A stretch of DNA of 64,000 nt from a virus. A model generated the notes under the pieces. The model did not search any database and had not been told where the DNA came from. It worked only from the letters and a program-made list of their open reading frames with translations. Where the stretch lies: positions 3,483 to 67,482 of the IMG/VR virus record IMGVR_UViG_3300003316_000080. One strand, 5' to 3'. Positions within the stretch are counted from its first letter, which is position 1. Each line of letters starts with the position of its first letter. This document shows, piece after piece, positions 39,636 to 49,997 of the stretch. Made by a program: the position numbers and the translations under genes.

Positions 39636-40856
39636 ATGAAATTCCCGAAGATCTTCACGCCGAAGCGCTCCATCGTGCGCGTGGTGCGTGGTCACATGAC
39701 TGGCGACAACGGCAGCGCCCTTGCGGCACTGCTGGCCGGCGCCGGTCACAACACCTTCGACGCCAACGCGGTCGGCGCGCTGCTGGCCGCTCCGACGGCC
39801 TCGATCGATCTGTACGGCAACCAGCGCGGCCACACCCTGCAACACCCGGTGCAGATCAAGACCGCTGACGGCCAGATGCGCACGGTCGACTCGACCGGCG
39901 CCTTCATGGTCGGTGAGCTGGAGCGCCTCGACCCGACCATGAACATGCCGCTGGTCGACGTGTCATGGTCGCGTGACATCGACCTGCGCGAAGACGTGTC
40001 GCTGGCCGACGAACTGTCGTCGTACACGCTGAGCCAGATCGCGGCGGCTGGTGGCCTCGCTGCCGGCGCCGGCATCCGCAACGGTAAGGCGTGGATCGGT
40101 AAGGTGTCCAACCAGATCGGCGGCGTGTCCGTCGACATCTCGAAGATCACCAACCCGCTGACGCTCTGGGGCATGGAAGTCAAGTACTCCATCCCGGAAC
40201 TGGAGAGCGCCGCGCGCGCCGGTCGTCCGATCGATGAACAGAAGCTGGAGGGCCTGCGCCTGAAGCAGCAGATGGACGTCGACGAGCAGGTCTACGTGGG
40301 TGACGCCCAGATCAACGTGGGCGGCCTGTGCAACCACTCGCTGGTCACCAACGTCGCCAACCTGCCCAACGGTGCGGGCGGCTCGCCGCGCTGGTCCCTG
40401 AAGACGGCCGATGAGATCCTGACGGACGTCAACGCGATCCTGACCTCCGCGTGGCGCGCGTCAGGCTACGCGCAGATCCCCAACCGCCTGCTGCTGCCGC
40501 CCACCGTGTTCGGCATGCTGACGACCCGGATCGTGTCGTCTGCCGGCTCCGTCTCGATCCTGCGGTACCTGCTGGAGAACAACATTCTTACCAAGCAGGG
40601 CAAGGGTGATCTGGAGATCTTCCCGGTCAAGTGGCTGGTCGGCTGCGGCGTCGGCGGCACCATCGGCACGGAAGGCGGTGTCGACCGCATGGTGGCGTAC
40701 CGCAAGGACAAGCGTCTGGTGCGCTTCCCCATGACCGGCCTGCAGCGCACCCCGGTGCAGTTCTCGTCGATCTACCACAGCACGACGTACTTCAACCGCC
40801 TCGGCGTCGTCGAGTTCGTCTACCCGGAGACGGCGGCCTACAGAGACGGTCTCTAA
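39636..40856 (+). CDS. major capsid protein
   Basis: AAGGAA RBS; ~406 aa; follows protease/scaffold as in XkdF/XkdG-type head modules. Confidence 0.6.
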   Translation: MKFPKIFTPKRSIVRVVRGHMTGDNGSALAALLAGAGHNTFDANAVGALLAAPTASIDLYGNQRGHTLQHPVQIKTADGQMRTVDSTGAFMVGELERLDPTMNMPLVDVSWSRDIDLREDVSLADELSSYTLSQIAAAGGLAAGAGIRNGKAWIGKVSNQIGGVSVDISKITNPLTLWGMEVKYSIPELESAARAGRPIDEQKLEGLRLKQQMDVDEQVYVGDAQINVGGLCNHSLVTNVANLPNGAGGSPRWSLKTADEILTDVNAILTSAWRASGYAQIPNRLLLPPTVFGMLTTRIVSSAGSVSILRYLLENNILTKQGKGDLEIFPVKWLVGCGVGGTIGTEGGVDRMVAYRKDKRLVRFPMTGLQRTPVQFSSIYHSTTYFNRLGVVEFVYPETAAYRDGL

Positions 40857-40903: not shown

Positions 40904-41569
40904 ATGGACACAAGAGTTCGCAAGGTTTACGCGTTGATGGACCCACGTGGGGCTGTAACCAGCGTCCGATATGTCGGGTGCACGCTTCAGAAGATTCTGA
41001 ACAGGTTGCAGTCCCACATTTACGAAGCAGAGACGAGTCCTGATGTCACACCAAAGCTTGTGTGGTTGCGAGCGCTGGCCGACGCGGGTTTAAAGCCTCT
41101 GATCGTGCACTTGGAAACAGTGGCACCTGAAGACGACTGGCAAGAGCGTGAGAAGTACTGGATCGCGAAATACAGCGGACCTGAATTGCTCAACACAACG
41201 ACAGGTGGTATCGGGGCACAGGGTTTAGCCCAAGATGTTCGTGATCGAATTTCGGAAGCGCTGCGCGGTCGTAGCCTGAGTGAAGAGCACAAAGCAAAGC
41301 TACGGAAGAACGCAGCAGAGAACCCATACAAGCACACAGAAGAAGCGAAGCGCGCTATCTCGGAGTCCAAGAAAGGTCTGAAGTTAGGACCCTTGTCCAA
41401 CGAAGCCAAGCAGAAACTGCGTGATGCCATGGGCTCTCTGGTGTGGATCACCAACGGGCGGGAAAACCGACGTGTGAAAGCAGATGCCATTCCGGCTGGG
41501 TGGCAGAAGGGGCGAGCCCCAAAGGACCAGCCAAAGCAATCACGCCGCGTACTTCGCGACGACCTTTAA
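40904..41569 (+). CDS. GIY-YIG homing endonuclease with NUMOD3-like repeats
   Basis: KVYALMDPRGAVTSVRYVGCT (GIY-YIG); C-terminal repeats HKAKLRK, EEAKRAISESKKG, NEAKQKLRDAMG. Confidence 0.8.
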   Translation: MDTRVRKVYALMDPRGAVTSVRYVGCTLQKILNRLQSHIYEAETSPDVTPKLVWLRALADAGLKPLIVHLETVAPEDDWQEREKYWIAKYSGPELLNTTTGGIGAQGLAQDVRDRISEALRGRSLSEEHKAKLRKNAAENPYKHTEEAKRAISESKKGLKLGPLSNEAKQKLRDAMGSLVWITNGRENRRVKADAIPAGWQKGRAPKDQPKQSRRVLRDDL

Positions 41570-43975: not shown

Positions 43976-45481
43976 ATGGCAACCACGCCCGTTCAATTAC
44001 CGCTGTCTCGTCTGATCAACGTCGCTGTTGTTCTGACCGCAGCAGCTGCTCAAGCGCAGAACCTGTCGACCCTGCTCATCCTGGGCACGTCATCTGTGAT
44101 CGACACCGTGACGCGCCAGCGCGATTACGAATCCCTCACCGATGTCGGCGCCGATTTCGGCAGCAGCGCACCTGAATATCTGGCCGCCCAGATCTACTTC
44201 GCGCAGTCGCCTCAGCCCACCACGCTGAAGATCGGCCGCTGGTTCCTGACGGCCGCTGCGGGCTCGCTGGTGGGTAAGACACTGAGCGCGGCTGAACAGA
44301 CACTGGCGAACTTCACTGCCGTGACCTCGGGTGGTTTCACCTACACCAAGAACGGCGGCGCTCCGACCAACGTGACGGGCATCAATCTGTCCACGGCAAC
44401 CAACCTCAACGCGGTTGCCTCGCTGATCACGGCGGCGCTCACGGGTGCCACGATGGTCTGGAATGCGCAGTACCAGCGCTTCGAACTGACTTCGGCCGCC
44501 ACCGGCGCGACTTCAGCGATCAGCTTTCTGACGGCGCCGGGCTCTGGCACCGACATCAGTGCACTGCTGGGCATGACGGCCGCATCGTCGGGTGCCTACC
44601 AAGCGCCCGGTGCTGACGCAGAAACGCCGATCGCCGCAGTAACGTTGTTCGAGCAGAACTGGGGCCAGACGTGGTACGGCCTGCAGATGCTGGGTATCAG
44701 CGGTGGCGGCGCAACTGCTGACCATCTCGCTGTCGCTCAGTTCATCGAAGGCACGAACACGAAGCACGTGTACGGCATCACGACTCAGGATGCAGCGGCC
44801 CTCGTGCAGGGCAACACCACCAACGTCGGTGCGGTCATGAAGGCCAACGGCCTAGACAAGACGATGGTGCGCTATTCGTCGAAGTCGCCGTATGCGGTCG
44901 CAACTGACTTCGGCCGCATGCTGACGGTGAATTACAACGGCGAAAACACCGTCATCACGATGATGTACAAGCAGACGCCGGGGCTGGAGGCTGAGGCCAT
45001 CAACAGCACGCAGGCGAACGCGCTGCAGTCCAACAACATCAACGTGTCGGCGGGCTACTCGAACGGCACCGCAATCACGCAGTACGGCGTCATGTCGTCG
45101 GGTGAATACATCGACACGATCTTTGGCATCGACTGGCTCGCGGTGACCGTGCAGACGAATCTGTACAACGCCCTGTACACGACGACCACGAAGATCCCCC
45201 AGACCGACGCCGGTCAGAACCTCCTGAACACCAAGGTGGAAGAGGTCTGCCAACAGGGTGTGACCAACGGTCTGCTGGCACCGGGCGTGTGGAACGCAAC
45301 AGGCTTCGGCACGCTGAAGCAAGGCGACTACATGGAGAAGGGCTACTACGTGTACAGCGCTCCGATGCGCACGCAGAACCAGTCCGATAGGCAAGCACGC
45401 AAGTCGATGCCGATCCAGGCCGCTGCCAAGCTCGCTGGTGCGATCCACACGGTGCAACTGACCGTTACCGTCAACCAGTAA
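43976..45481 (+). CDS. tail sheath protein
   Basis: ~500 aa Thr/Ala/Gly-rich protein immediately upstream of tube and chaperone genes. Confidence 0.6.
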   Translation: MATTPVQLPLSRLINVAVVLTAAAAQAQNLSTLLILGTSSVIDTVTRQRDYESLTDVGADFGSSAPEYLAAQIYFAQSPQPTTLKIGRWFLTAAAGSLVGKTLSAAEQTLANFTAVTSGGFTYTKNGGAPTNVTGINLSTATNLNAVASLITAALTGATMVWNAQYQRFELTSAATGATSAISFLTAPGSGTDISALLGMTAASSGAYQAPGADAETPIAAVTLFEQNWGQTWYGLQMLGISGGGATADHLAVAQFIEGTNTKHVYGITTQDAAALVQGNTTNVGAVMKANGLDKTMVRYSSKSPYAVATDFGRMLTVNYNGENTVITMMYKQTPGLEAEAINSTQANALQSNNINVSAGYSNGTAITQYGVMSSGEYIDTIFGIDWLAVTVQTNLYNALYTTTTKIPQTDAGQNLLNTKVEEVCQQGVTNGLLAPGVWNATGFGTLKQGDYMEKGYYVYSAPMRTQNQSDRQARKSMPIQAAAKLAGAIHTVQLTVTVNQ

Positions 45482-45507: not shown

Positions 45508-45951
45508 ATGGCTGCAAAAACCTACTCGTTCGCGGATGTGGTTGCCGCGCTGTCGGGCCCCGGTGGCTTGATCAACGTCGGCGCCGGCGCGGGCCCGTCG
45601 AAGGAAGGTGTGACCGTCACCCCGGGCGCGGACGCCAACATCATGCAGATCGGCGCTGACGGCGGCGGCCAGCACAGCATGACGTCCGATTTCTCCGGCA
45701 CGATCACGATCCGTCTTCTGAAGACGTCGCCTACTAACGCACTGCTGGCGGCGATGCTGAGCTTCCAGCGCGCGTCGGCGGCCAACTGGGGTCAGAACAC
45801 CTTCAGCCTCGCGGACAAGAACCGCAACGACATCGTGACGGCCTCGCAAGTCGCTTTCAAGAAGTGGCCTGACCTGACCTTCGCGGAAGAAGCCGGCGTC
45901 AACGAATGGGTGTTCGACGCCGTGCGTATCTCGATGGCACTCGGCGCCTGA
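45508..45951 (+). CDS. tail tube protein
   Basis: 147 aa; between sheath and chaperone. Confidence 0.55.
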   Translation: MAAKTYSFADVVAALSGPGGLINVGAGAGPSKEGVTVTPGADANIMQIGADGGGQHSMTSDFSGTITIRLLKTSPTNALLAAMLSFQRASAANWGQNTFSLADKNRNDIVTASQVAFKKWPDLTFAEEAGVNEWVFDAVRISMALGA

Positions 45952-45986
45952 TCCACCTCCCCTTCTCTCCCTGTCAAAGCAAAATC

Positions 45987-46472
45987 ATGAGCAACATCGT
46001 AGAAGTCCAAGGTCAGAGGTACTCCATCGGAAGACTCGACGTGTTTGTGCAGATGCACATTGCACGTCGAGTCGGTACCGTCATCAACGAGATCGAAGCG
46101 GCCAAGTACGAGATGTACCAAGACGGCACGCTGGCAGAACTGATCGAAGGCGAAGATCCGGTGCTGAGGGCCTCGCGAATCATGCATGGCATGGTAAAGG
46201 CAGGCTGGCGCGCAATGGGCGCCATGGCACAAGATGACGCCGACTACGTGATGTTCGAGTGCCTGAAGGTCGTCCAGCGCGAGCAGCAAGGTGGCGACTG
46301 GGCCAAGGTCGTCACGGGCAAGCAAGCACTTTTCGCGGACATGACGGGACAGGTGCTGATGCGTCTGGTCGTCGAAGTCTGCAAGGAGAATCTGGCCGAT
46401 TTTTTTCCTTTGCTGAGCGGCATGCAAGATTCCTCGGAGAGTGCCGACACATCGTCGGCGACGGGGGCGTGA
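45987..46472 (+). CDS. tail assembly chaperone (zero-frame product)
   Basis: Between tube and tape measure; contains T7 slippery run near its 3' end. Confidence 0.55.
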   Translation: MSNIVEVQGQRYSIGRLDVFVQMHIARRVGTVINEIEAAKYEMYQDGTLAELIEGEDPVLRASRIMHGMVKAGWRAMGAMAQDDADYVMFECLKVVQREQQGGDWAKVVTGKQALFADMTGQVLMRLVVEVCKENLADFFPLLSGMQDSSESADTSSATGA

Positions 46473-46657
46473 CGCTCATAGGGCTGGAAGGAGGTGAGCA
46501 GTTCCTTCTCCAGCCCGTGCACGCAGGGATGTGCACATATCTGGATCTGAAGAACGGTTCTCTGTCCCTCTATGACGTGGCTCTGCTCAATGAGTACCTG
46601 GAAATGGAGGCAGAGAACAGAGCCCGCCTAGAAGCGGCACGACCAACAAGGAGTTGA
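46400..46657 (+). CDS. tail assembly chaperone -1 frameshift extension
   Basis: Heptamer T-TTT-TTT at 46400-46406 (codons gat ttt ttt); -1 frame stays open to 46657, 1 nt before tape-measure start. Confidence 0.5.
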   Translation, partial: FFSFAERHARFLGECRHIVGDGGVTLIGLEGGEQFLLQPVHAGMCTYLDLKNGSLSLYDVALLNEYLEMEAENRARLEAARPTRS

Positions 46658-46658
46658 C

Positions 46659-48104
46659 ATGGCAGCTGGTTCCTCTGAAGTCCTGCGCGAGTATCTGATT
46701 CGTCTGGGCTTCCAGATCGACCAGCGCGGCCAACGCAACTTCGACACGGCAACGGTCAACATCCAGAAACGCGTGATGGGAATCGCGCAGGCTGTGACCG
46801 CCGTGACGGGTGCTGCAACCGCAATGGTTGTCTCGTACACCCGCGACATGGAGAAGATGTATTACGCCTCCCGTAAAGCGGAGGCGCCTGTCGCAGCGCT
46901 GAACAACCTCGCATACGGATACCGTCAGATCGGACTGGATGGTAAACAGGCGATTGCCACAGTCGAAGGCATTGCACGCAGCATGCGCAGCAACCCGGGC
47001 TTGACGGCATTGCTGAAGGACCTGGGAGTGCCCGTGCAGGGCCGCACCAAAGATCAGGTACTGCTGGACCTCGTCGGTGCCTTGCGCAAGATGCCTGAGC
47101 ACATCGCCATCCAGTACGGCAACCTGTTTGGGATCGACCCTGATCAGCTGAAACTTCTTACTGAAGGCTATGACAAGTTGCTGGCTGCTGAGAAGCAGCG
47201 CCAGATGATGACGCAGGGTCTGAACATCGATACAGAGGCAGCGGCAAAGGCTGCTGTCGAATATGCGAATGCACTCGACAAGGTGACGGAGCGCGCCAAG
47301 ATCCTGTTTAGCGTCATTTCCGTTGGCATGCTGCCTTACTTCAAGCAGATGACGTCCAATCTGGACGAGATGCTGAAGAGCATGACACGCGTCGCTGCTT
47401 TTGCTCAAAAGGCCACGCCTGCTGAATTCTGGGCAGAGACGAAGAATCAGGCCCGGCTGCTGTGGGAGACGCTGTCGGGCAGTCGCGGCAGTGTGACGCT
47501 GAGCCCGCGAGCCCAGGCGCAGAAGGACACAGCAGGCTTGTCGGGCCTCCCCGCCCTCCCACCAGGGCCGCCAGCGCCAGCTGGCAATTTGCCCCTAGGC
47601 CTGCGGAACAACAATCCTGGCAACTTGCGCGCCGGCTTGGGTCAGACGGGCATGAACCGGGGGTTCGCAACTTTCGACACGCCGGAGCAGGGCCTTGCTG
47701 CAATGGCGCGGCAGCTACTGCTGTACCAGAACCGCGACGGCCTCAAGAACATCTCGCAGATCATCAAGAAGTACGCACCGGCCAGCGAGAACAACACACA
47801 GGCATACATCGACGCAGTAACGAAGGCGACAGGCTTCAACTCTCAGGAGTACATTGACCTCAACGCGACAGGCAATCTGGCCGCGATCATGGAGGCCATG
47901 GTCAAGCACGAGAATGGGCGCAATCCGTTCTCGTCTGCCCAGTTTGAGACAGCGGCACGTCAGGGTGCCGCCTTCCAGCAGCAGACCAATATCACCGTCT
48001 ATGGCGCCACAGACCCCACAGCAACGGCAAATGCCATCGGCGGTCAGCAGCGCTCTGTCAACTCCGATCTGATGCGTCAGATGGGCACACGCAAGGTGGA
48101 ATAA
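46659..48104 (+). CDS. tail tape measure protein
   Basis: AAGGAG RBS; long helical protein following chaperone pair. Confidence 0.55.
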   Translation: MAAGSSEVLREYLIRLGFQIDQRGQRNFDTATVNIQKRVMGIAQAVTAVTGAATAMVVSYTRDMEKMYYASRKAEAPVAALNNLAYGYRQIGLDGKQAIATVEGIARSMRSNPGLTALLKDLGVPVQGRTKDQVLLDLVGALRKMPEHIAIQYGNLFGIDPDQLKLLTEGYDKLLAAEKQRQMMTQGLNIDTEAAAKAAVEYANALDKVTERAKILFSVISVGMLPYFKQMTSNLDEMLKSMTRVAAFAQKATPAEFWAETKNQARLLWETLSGSRGSVTLSPRAQAQKDTAGLSGLPALPPGPPAPAGNLPLGLRNNNPGNLRAGLGQTGMNRGFATFDTPEQGLAAMARQLLLYQNRDGLKNISQIIKKYAPASENNTQAYIDAVTKATGFNSQEYIDLNATGNLAAIMEAMVKHENGRNPFSSAQFETAARQGAAFQQQTNITVYGATDPTATANAIGGQQRSVNSDLMRQMGTRKVE

Positions 48105-48740
48105 ATGTCAGGTGTCGGCATCATCGCAGCGGGGGCCCAACTGGGCCTCCAGTCCATTGTGGTTAAGCCCCGCCGCTCCATCGGCACACTAAGTCCACAG
48201 GTGACGATCTCTGAACTGCACACGGATGAACTCGACATCACGGACCATCCTGTCGAGCGTGGTTCTGTGATCACCGATCATTCGTACAAGCGACCGGCCG
48301 AGGTGGTCATTGAGTGCGGGTGGAGCAACTCGCCGTCGGAAACGGGCTACTTCAATGGGCTGCTCTCGGGCCTTGCCGGCACTGTGACTGGCGTTCAGTC
48401 ACTGCTGTCAGGCAACTCGGCGAGTCAGGTGCGCGAGTGGTACACGAAGTTGCTCAAACTGCAGGCCGATCGCGAGCCCTTCGATGTGTACACGGGCAAG
48501 CGCGTGTACAAGAACATGCTGATTCGTCAGATCATCACCCGCACCGATAAGAACACAGAAAACGTGTTGATGGTCACGGTGACTCTGCGTGAGGTGCTGC
48601 TGGTCAGCACCAAGGTGGTCACGCTGGCTGCTGACAAGAGCGCACAGAAGACACCGGACAAGACGCAGCCCACATCTGATCGCGGCACACAGGCCCTGGG
48701 TCCCGGATCGAGCTACACGACCCCAGGCCCGTCTAACTGA
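48105..48740 (+). CDS. tail/baseplate protein
   Basis: Position after tape measure. Confidence 0.45.
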   Translation: MSGVGIIAAGAQLGLQSIVVKPRRSIGTLSPQVTISELHTDELDITDHPVERGSVITDHSYKRPAEVVIECGWSNSPSETGYFNGLLSGLAGTVTGVQSLLSGNSASQVREWYTKLLKLQADREPFDVYTGKRVYKNMLIRQIITRTDKNTENVLMVTVTLREVLLVSTKVVTLAADKSAQKTPDKTQPTSDRGTQALGPGSSYTTPGPSN

Positions 48741-48747
48741 GGTGGCT

Positions 48748-49056
48748 ATGACTCCCTACGAAATTCCGTTGGTCAACGATCCGCAGACGCTGCAGATCCC
48801 GCTGGGCGGCGTCGTGTACACGCTCACGGTGCAATTCAACAGCATTGCCGGTTCGTGGACCCTCGACATCGCTGATGCGCAGCGCGTTCCTATCGTGTCT
48901 GGAATTCCACTGGTCACAGGTGTGGATCTGCTGGAACAGTACGAGTACCTGGGCATCGGCGGCCGGCTGGAGGTGCAGTCGGACGGTGATGTGACGGCTG
49001 TGCCCCAGTTCAACGACCTGGGAGTCACCGGTCGCCTCTTCTTCGTGGTGGAGTGA
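48748..49056 (+). CDS. small tail protein
   Basis: GAGGTGG RBS. Confidence 0.45.
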   Translation: MTPYEIPLVNDPQTLQIPLGGVVYTLTVQFNSIAGSWTLDIADAQRVPIVSGIPLVTGVDLLEQYEYLGIGGRLEVQSDGDVTAVPQFNDLGVTGRLFFVVE

Positions 49057-49997
49057 TGGCGAACTCTGATCTTCAGTACAAGCGCAAGTGCACCTTGGTC
49101 GTGACCGAGGGTGAGAAAGGTCTGGACCTTTCTGAACTGCGCATTACCTTCGCCACGCAGCAGCAGGACGTGGAAAGCCCTTCCAATGTGCTGATCCGCG
49201 TGTACAACCTCGCAGACGACACGGAGAAGCGCATCCGGGGCGAGTTCTCACGTGTGACGCTACAAGCTGGCTATGACGCTGCGTTTGGCGTCATCTTCCA
49301 AGGCCAGATCAAGCAATTTGGCATGGGCCGTGTCGATGCCAAGAACAAGTATCTGGACCTGCTTTGCGCGGATGGCGATGAGGCATACAACTTCGCTTAC
49401 GTCAACAAGACGTTGGCGGCAGGATCGAATGCGCGCGATGAGGTCAACGCGGCAGGTGCTGCCATGAAGCCCCACGGCATTGATATGGGCTACATCGCTG
49501 ATGCGACGGGCGGTGTGCTGCCGCGCGGCAAAGTGCTGTTCGGCCTCGCACGTGCGTCCATGCGCCGGGCAGCGCGCAACATGGGCACAAGCTGGACGAT
49601 CAATAACGGTCAGGTGAACGTGGTGCCGCTTGACGGCTACCTGCCTGGGGAAGCTGTCGCACTGAACTCGCAGACCGGCATGATCGGTGTGCCCCAGCAG
49701 ACGGAAAACGGACTGATCGTCACGTGCCTACTGAACCCAAAGATTGTGGTGGGTGGCCTCATCCAGATCAACGAGCGGGACATCAATCGCGTGATTGGTG
49801 CTCCTGGCAACACGGCTAACGTCGCTTACAACACGTACACAGGCGTGCAGCGCTTTGCGACCACGACCTTCGACGGCTTCTATCGTGTGATCGTTGCGGA
49901 ACACCGAGGCGACACGCGCGGCCAAGAGTGGTACACGACAATGACCTGCCTCGCAGTCAACCGTGACACGCTGAAGATTGCACCGGAGACGACATGA
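49053..49997 (+). CDS. baseplate hub-like protein
   Basis: ATGA overlap; position. Confidence 0.45.
   Translation: MMANSDLQYKRKCTLVVTEGEKGLDLSELRITFATQQQDVESPSNVLIRVYNLADDTEKRIRGEFSRVTLQAGYDAAFGVIFQGQIKQFGMGRVDAKNKYLDLLCADGDEAYNFAYVNKTLAAGSNARDEVNAAGAAMKPHGIDMGYIADATGGVLPRGKVLFGLARASMRRAARNMGTSWTINNGQVNVVPLDGYLPGEAVALNSQTGMIGVPQQTENGLIVTCLLNPKIVVGGLIQINERDINRVIGAPGNTANVAYNTYTGVQRFATTTFDGFYRVIVAEHRGDTRGQEWYTTMTCLAVNRDTLKIAPETT

What the first reader, a model, noticed from the sequence alone, without database searches (positions are those of the whole stretch)
46398..46657. Programmed -1 frameshift site in the tail assembly chaperone
The chaperone ORF ends at 46472, but a run of seven T (46400-46406, codons gat-ttt-ttt) allows -1 slippage into a frame that stays open to 46657, 1 nt before the tape-measure start. 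This matches the conserved chaperone frameshift of tailed phages at the expected position between tube and tape measure.
Basis: partly seen in the sequence, partly recalled or inferred. Interest (0 to 1): 0.45.

Follow-up and report, generated by a model that had tools for sequence, protein, structure and literature searches.

The report
Tail chaperone −1 frameshift site confirmed
The run of seven T's is very probably a genuine programmed −1 ribosomal frameshift site that lets this phage make a short and a long tail-assembly chaperone from one gene, a well-known trick of tailed phages, so it is real but ordinary.

Summary
The chaperone ORF is 45987..46472. T7 (46400-46406) lies in X_XXY_YYZ phase (gaT TTT TTT) and is the only homopolymer of 7 or more bases in the 64 kb. 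The −1 frame runs to 46657, 1 nt before the tape-measure ATG.

- The frame-0 part matches Pfam Phage_TAC_15. The −1 extension matches DUF6889 (E about 1e-15) and PHROG 4364.
- In 92 of 92 related loci the T domain is in the −1 frame relative to the chaperone.
- Of 84 non-redundant loci, 75 have an in-phase slippery heptamer at the same aligned N-L-G/A-x-F position. T_TTT_TTT is the commonest type (28).
- 68 of 84 have no possible start codon before the conserved T domain.
- An 83%-identical relative keeps GATTTTTTTCCTTTG exactly.
- Substitutions switch from frame-0 to −1-frame third positions across the site.
- Homologues in phages Magia and Mulock already carry an annotated frameshift product.

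Extras: an SD-like AAGGAG lies 11 nt upstream, and this register is enriched across the family. A predicted hairpin lies 7 nt downstream but is not conserved in the closest relatives.

Rivals are an independent GTG start at 46469 and transcriptional slippage. Both are less likely. Verdict: a new member of a known kind, of low interest.

The parts
43976..45481 (+). Tail sheath gene (context)
   Evidence: Pfam DUF3383 1.7e-134; phrog_205 tail sheath
45508..45951 (+). Tail tube gene (context), immediately upstream of the chaperone
   Evidence: Pfam KPP10_Orf10 1.7e-42 (listed as Phage_Tube_PhiTE); phrog_280
45987..46472 (+). Chaperone ORF 'G' (frame 0, 161 aa), the short product
   Evidence: Pfam Phage_TAC_15 6.9e-14; phrog_1688 tail assembly chaperone 1.2e-19. 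The start at 45987 agrees with the homologues and with the gene calls in L011 and L012.
46383..46388 (+). Shine-Dalgarno-like AAGGAG, 11 nt upstream of the slip heptamer; candidate 5' stimulator
   Evidence: Coordinates. Anti-SD duplex down to −8.5 kcal/mol. Across the family, SD cores pile up 11-12 nt before the T run: 43 hits against 5 or fewer at any other offset. Lost in L012, where it reads AAGGCC.
46400..46406 (+). Slippery heptamer T_TTT_TTT (two Phe codons preceded by T)
   Evidence: Identical in L012 (83% aa) and L013 (99%). The same aligned site is slippery in 75 of 84 non-redundant relatives, and 28 of them have T_TTT_TTT.
46414..46478 (+). Predicted irregular hairpin, 7-nt spacer after the heptamer; possible 3' stimulator (unproven)
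   Evidence: dG −30.4 kcal/mol, z −2.96. Weaker in L012 (−18.4, z −0.71). A fixed 60-nt window gives z −0.03 for the window and +1.08 for L015.
46406..46657 (+). −1-frame extension 'T' (83 codons plus stop) read after the slip; the long product GT is 223 aa
   Evidence: Translation. Open in the −1 frame in all relatives. Window-versus-L012 substitutions fall on −1-frame third positions, 15 of 25.
46532..46642 (+). Conserved T-domain core (DUF6889), residues 183-219 of GT
   Evidence: Pfam PF21829 1.1e-15 (57.5 bits against a cutoff of 23.9); phrog_4364 3.6e-16
46469..46471 (+). GTG in the −1 frame overlapping the G stop (GTGA); the start that gene callers use for a separate 62-aa ORF (rival reading)
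46659..48104 (+). Tape measure protein gene (481 aa); its AAGGAG RBS (46648-46653) lies inside the end of the T frame
   Evidence: phrog_2276 2.1e-61 and phrog_12506 2.3e-19; coordinates

Best explanation

Most ribosomes read 45987..46472 and release the 161-aa chaperone G. A minority slip back one base while two tRNA-Phe occupy UUU-UUU at 46401-46406, re-pairing on U_UUU_UU at 46400-46405. They then read UCC at 46406 onward in the −1 frame and terminate at 46655-46657. This gives a 223-aa GT protein with junction ...ENLADFF|SFAERH... whose C-terminus is the conserved DUF6889 'T' domain.

By analogy with lambda, the G part of both products coats the tape measure protein encoded immediately downstream, and the T domain recruits the tube protein. 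Neither ends up in the virion.

The slip is probably helped by the internal Shine-Dalgarno-like AAGGAG 11 nt upstream, as in dnaX. It is possibly also helped by the hairpin 7 nt downstream.

What is shown: the anatomy, the phase, domain homology in both frames, and family-wide conservation of the frame arrangement and slip position. What is inferred: that the fusion is actually made, its ratio to G, the role of the stimulators, and the binding partners.
For: - Phase and uniqueness of T7.
- G matches Phage_TAC_15 and phrog_1688. The −1 extension matches DUF6889 and phrog_4364. Gene order is sheath, tube, G/T, tape measure.
- 92 of 92 related loci have the T domain in the −1 frame relative to G, never in-frame or +1.
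- The slip site sits at the same aligned N-L-G/A-x-F position. 75 of 84 non-redundant loci have a full in-phase heptamer (T_TTT_TTT 28, C_CCT_TTT 18, GGGAAATTTTTTG 8, and others). The other 9 retain T_TTT.
- 68 of 84 loci have no ATG/GTG/TTG between the slip site and the start of the T-domain match. L009 has none before or in the first part of the domain, and in L007 the first is deep inside it.
- L012 (83% aa) and L013 (99%), from independent samples, keep GATTTTTTTCCTTTG exactly while the flanks vary.
- Window-versus-L012 differences: frame-0 third positions 24 of 36 upstream, evenly 3/3/3 in the overlap, −1-frame third positions 15 of 25 downstream.
- The −1 frame is stop-free through the overlap in every lineage. 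The product of the per-lineage chance values is about 2.5e-4.
- Magia and Mulock homologues carry an annotated two-piece 'tape measure chaperone frameshift product', and the Magia paper states it (PMC7883833).
- SD-like cores are enriched 11-12 nt upstream across the family, within the 9-14 nt range effective for −1 shifting (PMC5009743).
- The G/GT paradigm is summarised in PMC5009743.
Against: - There is no protein-level evidence: the fusion product is not observed here.
- U_UUU_UUU is reported to be much less shift-prone than A_AAA_AAG in E. coli (PMC5009743), and the host here is unknown.
- The downstream hairpin is not conserved in the nearest relatives L012 and L015.
- The upstream AAGGAG is lost in L012. 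Its family-wide enrichment could partly reflect a conserved Q/K-E-N protein motif with GC-rich codon choice.
- In the window's own clade a GTG overlaps the G stop (GTGA), so an independent coupled start cannot be excluded for this clade.
- The family loci are phylogenetically related, so counts such as 92 of 92 are not independent events.
Confidence: 0.85

Rival explanations
1. There are two separate genes. The DUF6889 peptide is made on its own as a 62-aa protein starting at GTG 46469, by termination-reinitiation coupling at the GTGA overlap with the chaperone stop. The T7 run is then incidental.
For: Gene callers on two independent assemblies call exactly this ORF. The GTGA overlap is kept in L012 and L013. 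BgManors32 has the same kind of overlap, and several GenBank records annotate a small separate ORF. The 62-aa ORF alone still matches DUF6889.
Against: No usable SD precedes the GTG: the G run ends 1 nt before it. 68 of 84 non-redundant relatives have no start codon at all between the slip site and the conserved domain, yet all keep the −1 frame open back to a slippery site. The slip heptamer is conserved against codon bias. A free T domain lacking the G part could not link the tape measure to the tube in the lambda model (PMC5009743).
Confidence: 0.07
2. The product is the same GT fusion, but it is made by transcriptional slippage. RNA polymerase inserts one extra U on the T7 tract, and ordinary translation of the U8 mRNA gives ...DFFSFAER... 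with no ribosomal slip.
For: The site is a pure homopolymer. One extra U gives exactly the same protein (sequence logic). T7 or longer T runs occur in 28 of 84 relatives, and L019 has T8.
Against: Efficient bacterial transcriptional slippage is described for runs of about 9 A or T (PMC5009743), and this run has 7. Most relatives use non-homopolymeric heptamers (C_CCT_TTT, G_GGA_AAT) or just T_TTT at the same position, where polymerase slippage is not expected, so the family's common mechanism must be ribosomal. The run sits in exact X_XXY_YYZ phase in all T7 members, which transcription would not require. No terminator-like hairpin precedes the run.
Confidence: 0.06
3. It is an artefact or pseudogene. 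A homopolymer-length sequencing or assembly error, or a recent indel, split what is really one in-frame chaperone gene.
For: Homopolymers are error-prone in some sequencing chemistries.
Against: Four independent assemblies from different samples (the window, L011, L012, L013) all have T7. None of 92 relatives has G and T in one frame.
Confidence: 0.01

Closest known systems
Phage lambda gpG/gpGT tail assembly chaperone frameshift (Levin, Hendrix & Casjens 1993; Xu, Hendrix & Duda 2004; summarised in PMC5009743)
   Same: Two overlapping ORFs lie between the major tail/tube gene and the tape measure gene. There is a −1 slip on an in-phase heptamer near the 3' end of G. The long product shares the G part and adds a small T domain. 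The T frame ends at the tape-measure start.
   Different: Lambda is a siphovirus and slips on G_GGA_AAG (tRNA-Lys). Here the tail is contractile and the site is U_UUU_UUU (tRNA-Phe). No sequence similarity to lambda G/T was detected; the families here are Phage_TAC_15 and DUF6889. Efficiency is unknown here, whereas lambda gives about 30:1 G:GT.
Burkholderia phage Magia (MT701587) and Klebsiella phage Mulock (MN098327) 'tape measure chaperone frameshift product'
   Same: They are true homologues at about 30-35% identity over both G and T, with the same gene order, the same −1 arrangement and the same aligned slip position. Both are annotated as joined CDS, and the frameshift is stated in PMC7883833.
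   Different: Different heptamers: C_CCT_TTT in Magia and GGGAAATTTTTTG in Mulock. Those annotations are bioinformatic too. Both are temperate phages of about 44 kb, whereas the window comes from a phage of about 66 kb.
Phage P2 gpE/gpE+E' (myovirus tail chaperone frameshift; Christie et al. 2002, cited from memory; P2 efficiency noted in PMC5009743)
   Same: It is a contractile-tail phage with a −1 shift late in the chaperone gene, upstream of the tape measure gene, on a T-rich heptamer (TTTTTTG as I recall, like L008-L010 here).
   Different: The protein families differ (Pfam Phage_E / P2_GpE, not matched here). The P2 details are recalled from memory and were not tested.
E. coli dnaX −1 frameshift signal (5' SD-like element, heptamer, 3' stem-loop)
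   Same: The signal architecture is the same: an SD-like AAGGAG 11 nt 5' of the heptamer, within the 9-14 nt effective range, and a predicted stem-loop 7 nt 3' of it.
   Different: The gene and purpose are unrelated. The dnaX heptamer is A_AAA_AAG with about 50% efficiency. Neither stimulator has been functionally tested here, and the hairpin is not conserved in the closest relatives.

Membership tests
G/GT-type tail assembly chaperone programmed frameshift (Xu, Hendrix & Duda 2004) | Two overlapping ORFs located between the major tail/tube gene and the tape measure gene | tested here: met
   Tube 45508..45951, G 45987..46472, T frame to 46657, tape measure from 46659
G/GT-type tail assembly chaperone programmed frameshift (Xu, Hendrix & Duda 2004) | In-phase slippery sequence inside the overlap of the two frames | tested here: met
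   T_TTT_TTT at 46400-46406 in X_XXY_YYZ phase, 66 nt before the G stop, with the −1 frame open from 46238
G/GT-type tail assembly chaperone programmed frameshift (Xu, Hendrix & Duda 2004) | The downstream ORF lacks a conserved initiation site of its own, and the frame arrangement is conserved among relatives despite sequence divergence | tested here: met
   92 of 92 loci have T in the −1 frame. 68 of 84 have no start codon before the T domain. The window's own clade does have a GTG at 46469.
G/GT-type tail assembly chaperone programmed frameshift (Xu, Hendrix & Duda 2004) | Both a short and a long protein are produced in a fixed ratio | not testable with these tools
   Needs a western blot, mass spectrometry or a reporter assay
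G/GT-type tail assembly chaperone programmed frameshift (Xu, Hendrix & Duda 2004) | G binds the tape measure protein, T binds the tail tube protein, and both are absent from virions | not testable with these tools
   Inferred by analogy with lambda (PMC5009743). No solved structure is related, and the AF2 model was unusable.
Pfam Phage_TAC_15 (PF21822) | Score above the Pfam gathering threshold | tested here: met
   52.9 bits against 22, residues 9-141
Pfam DUF6889 (PF21829) / PHROG 4364 | Score above the Pfam gathering threshold | tested here: met
   57.5-60.2 bits against 23.9 on the −1-frame peptide; phrog_4364 3.6e-16
dnaX-like stimulated −1 frameshift signal | SD-like element 9-14 nt 5' of the shift site | tested here: met
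   AAGGAG at 46383-46388, 11 nt before the heptamer. The register is enriched across the family. Function is untested, and the element is lost in L012.
dnaX-like stimulated −1 frameshift signal | Stable stem-loop or pseudoknot about 5-9 nt 3' of the shift site, conserved | tested here: inconclusive
   Hairpin 46414-46478, −30.4 kcal/mol, z −2.96 with a 7-nt spacer, but weak in L012 and absent in L015. Family mean z is −1.06 against −0.55 and −0.18 in controls.
Programmed transcriptional slippage site | Homopolymeric A or T run of about 9 or more (or a shorter run with a terminator-like upstream hairpin) | tested here: not met
   The run has 7 T. No terminator-like hairpin is found upstream. 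The threshold is from PMC5009743.

The most novel reading that the evidence does not exclude
The whole Phage_TAC_15/DUF6889 chaperone family of DUF3383-sheath myoviruses may use a dnaX-like composite signal: an internal Shine-Dalgarno element fixed 11-12 nt upstream of a Phe-tRNA slip site. U_UUU_UUU, a comparatively weak shifter in E. coli, is the preferred heptamer. Pfam's 'unknown function' DUF6889 would then simply be the frameshift-only T domain, one that is never encoded in-frame. In T7-bearing members, ribosomal and transcriptional slippage might both contribute to setting the G:GT ratio.
Probability: 0.3. Interest if true: 0.3.

Novelty: new member of a known kind. Interest (0 to 1): 0.17.

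Why it matters
The practical value is for annotation. Gene callers split this gene into a chaperone and a 62-aa 'hypothetical/DUF6889' ORF, and most GenBank relatives do the same or leave a 180-nt 'gap'. The correct model is a joined CDS with ribosomal slippage at 46406. The family survey also gives DUF6889 a role as the −1-frame T domain of TAC_15 chaperones, and it provides a ready set of natural slip-site variants at one homologous position. None of this changes how tail assembly or recoding is understood.

Tried and rejected
- A genome-contig scan with the G protein found no confirmed relative.
- The word-indexed protein search found only two close homologues, so family breadth came from the 'phages' tblastn and an alignment-driven IMG/VR scan.
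The single-sequence AF2 model of G had pLDDT 48.9 and pTM 0.32, too poor for a fold search, so none was run.
- A profile search of PDB sequences found no hit.
- A literature search for DUF6889 / Phage_TAC_15 found nothing. A search for the tetra- and hepta-nucleotide shiftiness paper also found nothing.
- A +1 frameshift is rejected because the +1 frame closes at 46497.
- The T run is not the tail of an intrinsic terminator: no upstream hairpin was found.
- The second in-phase shifty heptamer, C_CCA_AAG at 41518 in the GIY-YIG/NUMOD3 gene, is rejected as a recoding site. Its −1 extension is R/P-rich, has no domain match and overlaps the next gene.
- The downstream hairpin as a conserved stimulator could be neither confirmed nor rejected.

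Full report
**1. Observation**

Reading the window and re-deriving frames in a script confirms each statement of the finding.
- The chaperone ORF starts at ATG 45987 and ends with TGA at 46470-46472 (161 aa). Some gene callers use an upstream ATG at 45906 inside the tube gene, but homology starts at 45987.
- The T run is exactly 46400-46406. The frame-0 codons are GAT TTT TTT CCT, so the heptamer T_TTT_TTT is in the X_XXY_YYZ phase required for tandem −1 slippage of two tRNA-Phe.
- The −1 frame is open from 46238 to TGA 46655-46657. One base separates that stop from the ATG at 46659. The +1 frame closes at 46497.
- The predicted long product is 223 aa, with junction ...CKENLADFF|SFAERHAR....

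This is not a chance feature.
- The run is the only homopolymer of 7 or more bases in the 64 kb, 59.3% GC window.
- In-phase X_XXY_YYZ heptamers with Y = A or T occur only 7 times in about 19,000 in-phase codon positions.
- Phe is encoded TTC 63 times and TTT 18 times in the window's structural genes.

**2. What the genes are**

Pfam and PHROG scans give the following order.

| Coordinates | Identity | Evidence |
|---|---|---|
| 43976..45481 | tail sheath | DUF3383, 1.7e-134 |
| 45508..45951 | tail tube | KPP10_Orf10/DUF3277 type, 1.7e-42 |
| 45987..46472 | chaperone | Phage_TAC_15, 52.9 bits against cutoff 22; phrog_1688 'tail assembly chaperone' |
| 46659..48104 | tape measure protein | phrog_2276 2.1e-61; phrog_12506 |
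| 48105..48740 | Dit-like protein | Pfam Dit_like, 6.3e-35 |
| 49053..49997 | baseplate hub | phrog_196, 8.8e-66 |

The −1-frame extension is itself a conserved domain. Residues 183-219 of the fusion match Pfam DUF6889 (1.1e-15, 57.5 bits against cutoff 23.9) and phrog_4364 (3.6e-16). So the 185 nt between the chaperone stop and the tape-measure start are coding, in the −1 frame.

**3. Relatives**

A tblastn search of annotated phage genomes found 23 records at about 30-35% identity, from Burkholderia, Bordetella, Ralstonia, Acinetobacter, Edwardsiella, Klebsiella, Hafnia and Escherichia phages. Every near-full-length match came in two pieces.

Two of these, Burkholderia phage Magia and Klebsiella phage Mulock, carry a joined CDS annotated 'tape measure chaperone frameshift product'. 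The Magia genome paper states that a programmed translational frameshift was identified in that gene (PMC7883833). The other records either annotate a small separate 'hypothetical protein' or leave the stretch unannotated.

In all ten loci examined by hand, the −1 frame is open from inside the chaperone gene to within about 10 nt of the tape-measure start. It encodes the same motif, LPGGEDWLLxPV...C.YESL.DG.L.L.D[IV]AL[ML]ND.

The slip position aligns in the frame-0 motif N-L-G/A-x-F:

| Locus | Codons at the slip position |
|---|---|
| window | GAT TTT TTT |
| Magia, BgManors32 | CCT TTT A (C_CCT_TTT) |
| Acinetobacter and enterobacterial phages | GGA AAT TTT (TTG) |
| Ralstonia phage | GGT TTT TTC |
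| vB_PL1, ZHS | only T_TTT |

**4. Closer relatives and selection**

The word-indexed protein search found two close homologues, and their contigs were fetched.
- L013 (99% identity, a 66 kb contig from another sample) and L012 (83% aa identity) keep GATTTTTTTCCTTTG exactly while the flanking codons vary.
- Between the window and L012, differences fall on frame-0 third positions upstream of the site (24 of 36).
- They are spread evenly, 3/3/3, in the dual-coding overlap.
- They fall on −1-frame third positions after the chaperone stop (15 of 25).

This is the signature of a switch of the selected reading frame at the site. An 861-nt ENA contig (L011) is identical to the window. Four independent assemblies therefore agree on T7, which excludes a homopolymer-length artefact.

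**5. Family-wide survey**

An alignment of 11 reconstructed GT proteins (A3) was used to pull 80 more loci from IMG/VR. HMMs of the G part and the T part were searched against the three forward frames.
- In 92 of 92 loci the T domain lies in the −1 frame relative to G. It is never in-frame and never +1.
- Among 84 non-redundant loci, 75 have a full in-phase heptamer at the aligned position.
- The heptamer types are T_TTT_TTT 28, C_CCT_TTT 18 (plus 2 extended), GGGAAATTTTTTG 8, T_TTT_TTC 5, GGGTTTTTTC 4, and others.
- The remaining 9 retain a T_TTT unit.

The window therefore carries the commonest form of the site in its family.

TTT is 35% of Phe codons elsewhere in the G genes, but 80 of 84 slip sites contain TTTT. 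The −1 frame being stop-free across the overlap has per-lineage chance values of 0.27-0.78. Their product over roughly ten lineages is about 2.5e-4. This is an approximate figure, because the lineages are related.

**6. Rival: an independent small gene**

Gene callers on L011 and L013 call a 62-aa ORF from GTG 46469, overlapping the chaperone stop as GTGA. L012 and L013 keep that GTG. For the window's clade, a coupled restart therefore cannot be excluded.

It is not the family's way of expressing T, however.
- 68 of 84 non-redundant loci have no ATG/GTG/TTG between the slip site and the first residue of the T-domain match.
- L009 has no start codon before or in the first part of the domain. 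In L007 the first lies deep inside it.
- No properly spaced SD precedes GTG 46469.
- The rival does not explain the conserved, codon-bias-defying, in-phase heptamer.

I give it about 7%.

**7. Rival: transcriptional slippage**

One extra U inserted on the T tract would give the same protein. However, bacterial slippage is described for runs of about 9 A or T (PMC5009743). Most relatives use C_CCT_TTT, G_GGA_AAT or a bare T_TTT at the same position, where polymerase slippage is not expected. The run is always in exact ribosomal phase, and no terminator-like hairpin precedes it. I give it about 6% as the main mechanism. A minor contribution in T7/T8 members is possible.

**8. Stimulatory elements**

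(a) Upstream element. AAGGAG at 46383-46388 lies 11 nt before the heptamer, within the 9-14 nt range in which SD-like elements stimulate −1 shifting (PMC5009743).
- Its nearest diverged relative L012 has AAGGCC instead.
- Across the family, anti-SD complementarity peaks sharply at this register. About 26% of loci have a duplex of −6 kcal/mol or stronger at gaps of 7-11 nt, against 8% or less elsewhere.
- 43 SD-core hits end 11-12 nt before the T run, against 5 or fewer at any other offset within 40 nt.
- GGAG is in that register in 13 of 28 T7-class loci and 8 of 52 others.
- Caveat: the element overlaps a recurrent Q/K-E-N protein motif, and GC-rich codon choice favours GAG. RNA-level selection is therefore suggested, not proven.

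(b) Downstream element. A 65-nt irregular hairpin at 46414-46478 starts 7 nt after the heptamer (−30.4 kcal/mol, z −2.96; I chose the boundaries from the fold, which flatters z).
- It is much weaker in L012 (−18.4, z −0.71).
- A fixed 60-nt window shows no excess structure for the window, L012 or L015.
- Family-wide there is only a modest excess: mean z −1.06 against −0.55 and −0.18 in control windows (p = 0.03 and 0.0005).
- A different hairpin, GGGCUG...CAGCCC, 6 nt after the UUU codon, is shared by Burkholderia and Acinetobacter phages. Phage ZHS has one compensatory variant.

I regard a 3' stimulator in the window as possible but unproven.

**9. Mechanism and function**

The most likely mechanism is tandem −1 re-pairing of two tRNA-Phe on U_UUU_UUU. 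This yields G (161 aa) as the major product and GT (223 aa) as the minor product.

By analogy with lambda, G and the G part of GT bind the tape measure protein, T binds the tube protein, the ratio is about 30:1, and neither product is in virions (PMC5009743). On that model the DUF6889 domain would recruit the DUF3277-type tube protein onto the chaperone-coated 481-aa tape measure. These functional steps are inferred. There is no related solved structure, and no usable model could be made.

U_UUU_UUU is a weaker shifter than A_AAA_AAG in E. coli. That is compatible with the low efficiency expected of a G/GT site, and it may explain the need for an SD-like helper.

**10. Verdict**

This is a new, unannotated metagenomic member of a very well-known kind. 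True homologues are already annotated with the same frameshift.

The modest added value has three parts:
- the corrected gene model, a joined CDS slipping at 46406;
- the assignment of DUF6889 as a frameshift-only T domain;
- the family-level picture of slip-site variants with a recurrent upstream SD-like element.

Interest is low, at about 0.17.

Noticed in passing
window 40904-41569 (+): A GIY-YIG/NUMOD3-like homing-endonuclease gene (NUMOD3 2.8e-6; GIY-YIG 0.0024, below cutoff) sits between the major capsid gene (39636..40856, PF09950 7e-76) and the next gene (ATG 41586). It carries in-phase shifty heptamers GGGTTTAAAG (41086-41095) and C_CCA_AAG (41518-41524). The −1 continuations are short or R/P-rich and overlap the next gene, so this is probably chance.
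   Followed up: partly
window 46659-48104 (+): The tape measure protein is short (481 aa). Its C-terminal ~170 residues match lysozyme/transglycosylase-type PHROGs (phrog_873 'endolysin' 3.5e-43, phrog_7182), so the ruler part is only about 300 aa.
   Followed up: no
L001:3020-3052, L002:2900-2930, L004 (same register), L007:2924-2962, L005:2890-2925: Relatives from Burkholderia and Acinetobacter phages (GC 0.66 and 0.42) share a GGGCUG...CAGCCC hairpin starting 6 nt after the UUU slip codon. Phage ZHS has a compensatory GGAGCUG...CAGCUCC. This is probably the 3' stimulator in those lineages, and it differs from the window's hairpin.
   Followed up: partly
84 non-redundant family loci (L001-L093), 11-12 nt upstream of the slip run: SD-like cores (GGAG/AGGA) pile up at one register upstream of the slip site: 43 hits against 5 or fewer at other offsets. 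This is strongest in the T_TTT_TTT subclass, which often reads (C/A)AGGAGAA. It coincides with a Q/K-E-N protein motif, so RNA-level and protein-level constraint are not separated.
   Followed up: partly
window 46481-46516 (+): A second strong hairpin (GGGCUGGAAGGAG...CUUCUCCAGCCC) lies inside the T coding region and contains another AAGGAGG (46488-46494). It contributes to the z −2.79 of the 46410-46530 fold. The arm sequence differs in L012. Its role is unknown.
   Followed up: no
window 45792-46427 (−) and 45906-46472 (+): A 211-aa antisense ORF overlaps the chaperone gene. A 188-aa alternative start at 45906 inside the tube gene is chosen by one gene caller (P0001). Both look like high-GC artefacts, since homology and the relatives support the 45987 start.
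   Followed up: partly
L013 (Logan SRR31214434 contig, 66,225 nt): A 99%-identical phage contig of 66 kb exists in an unrelated sequencing run, so the 64 kb window is probably most of a ~66 kb phage genome. The nearest named relatives (30-35% aa) infect Burkholderia, Bordetella and Ralstonia. The host of this phage is unknown.
   Followed up: no
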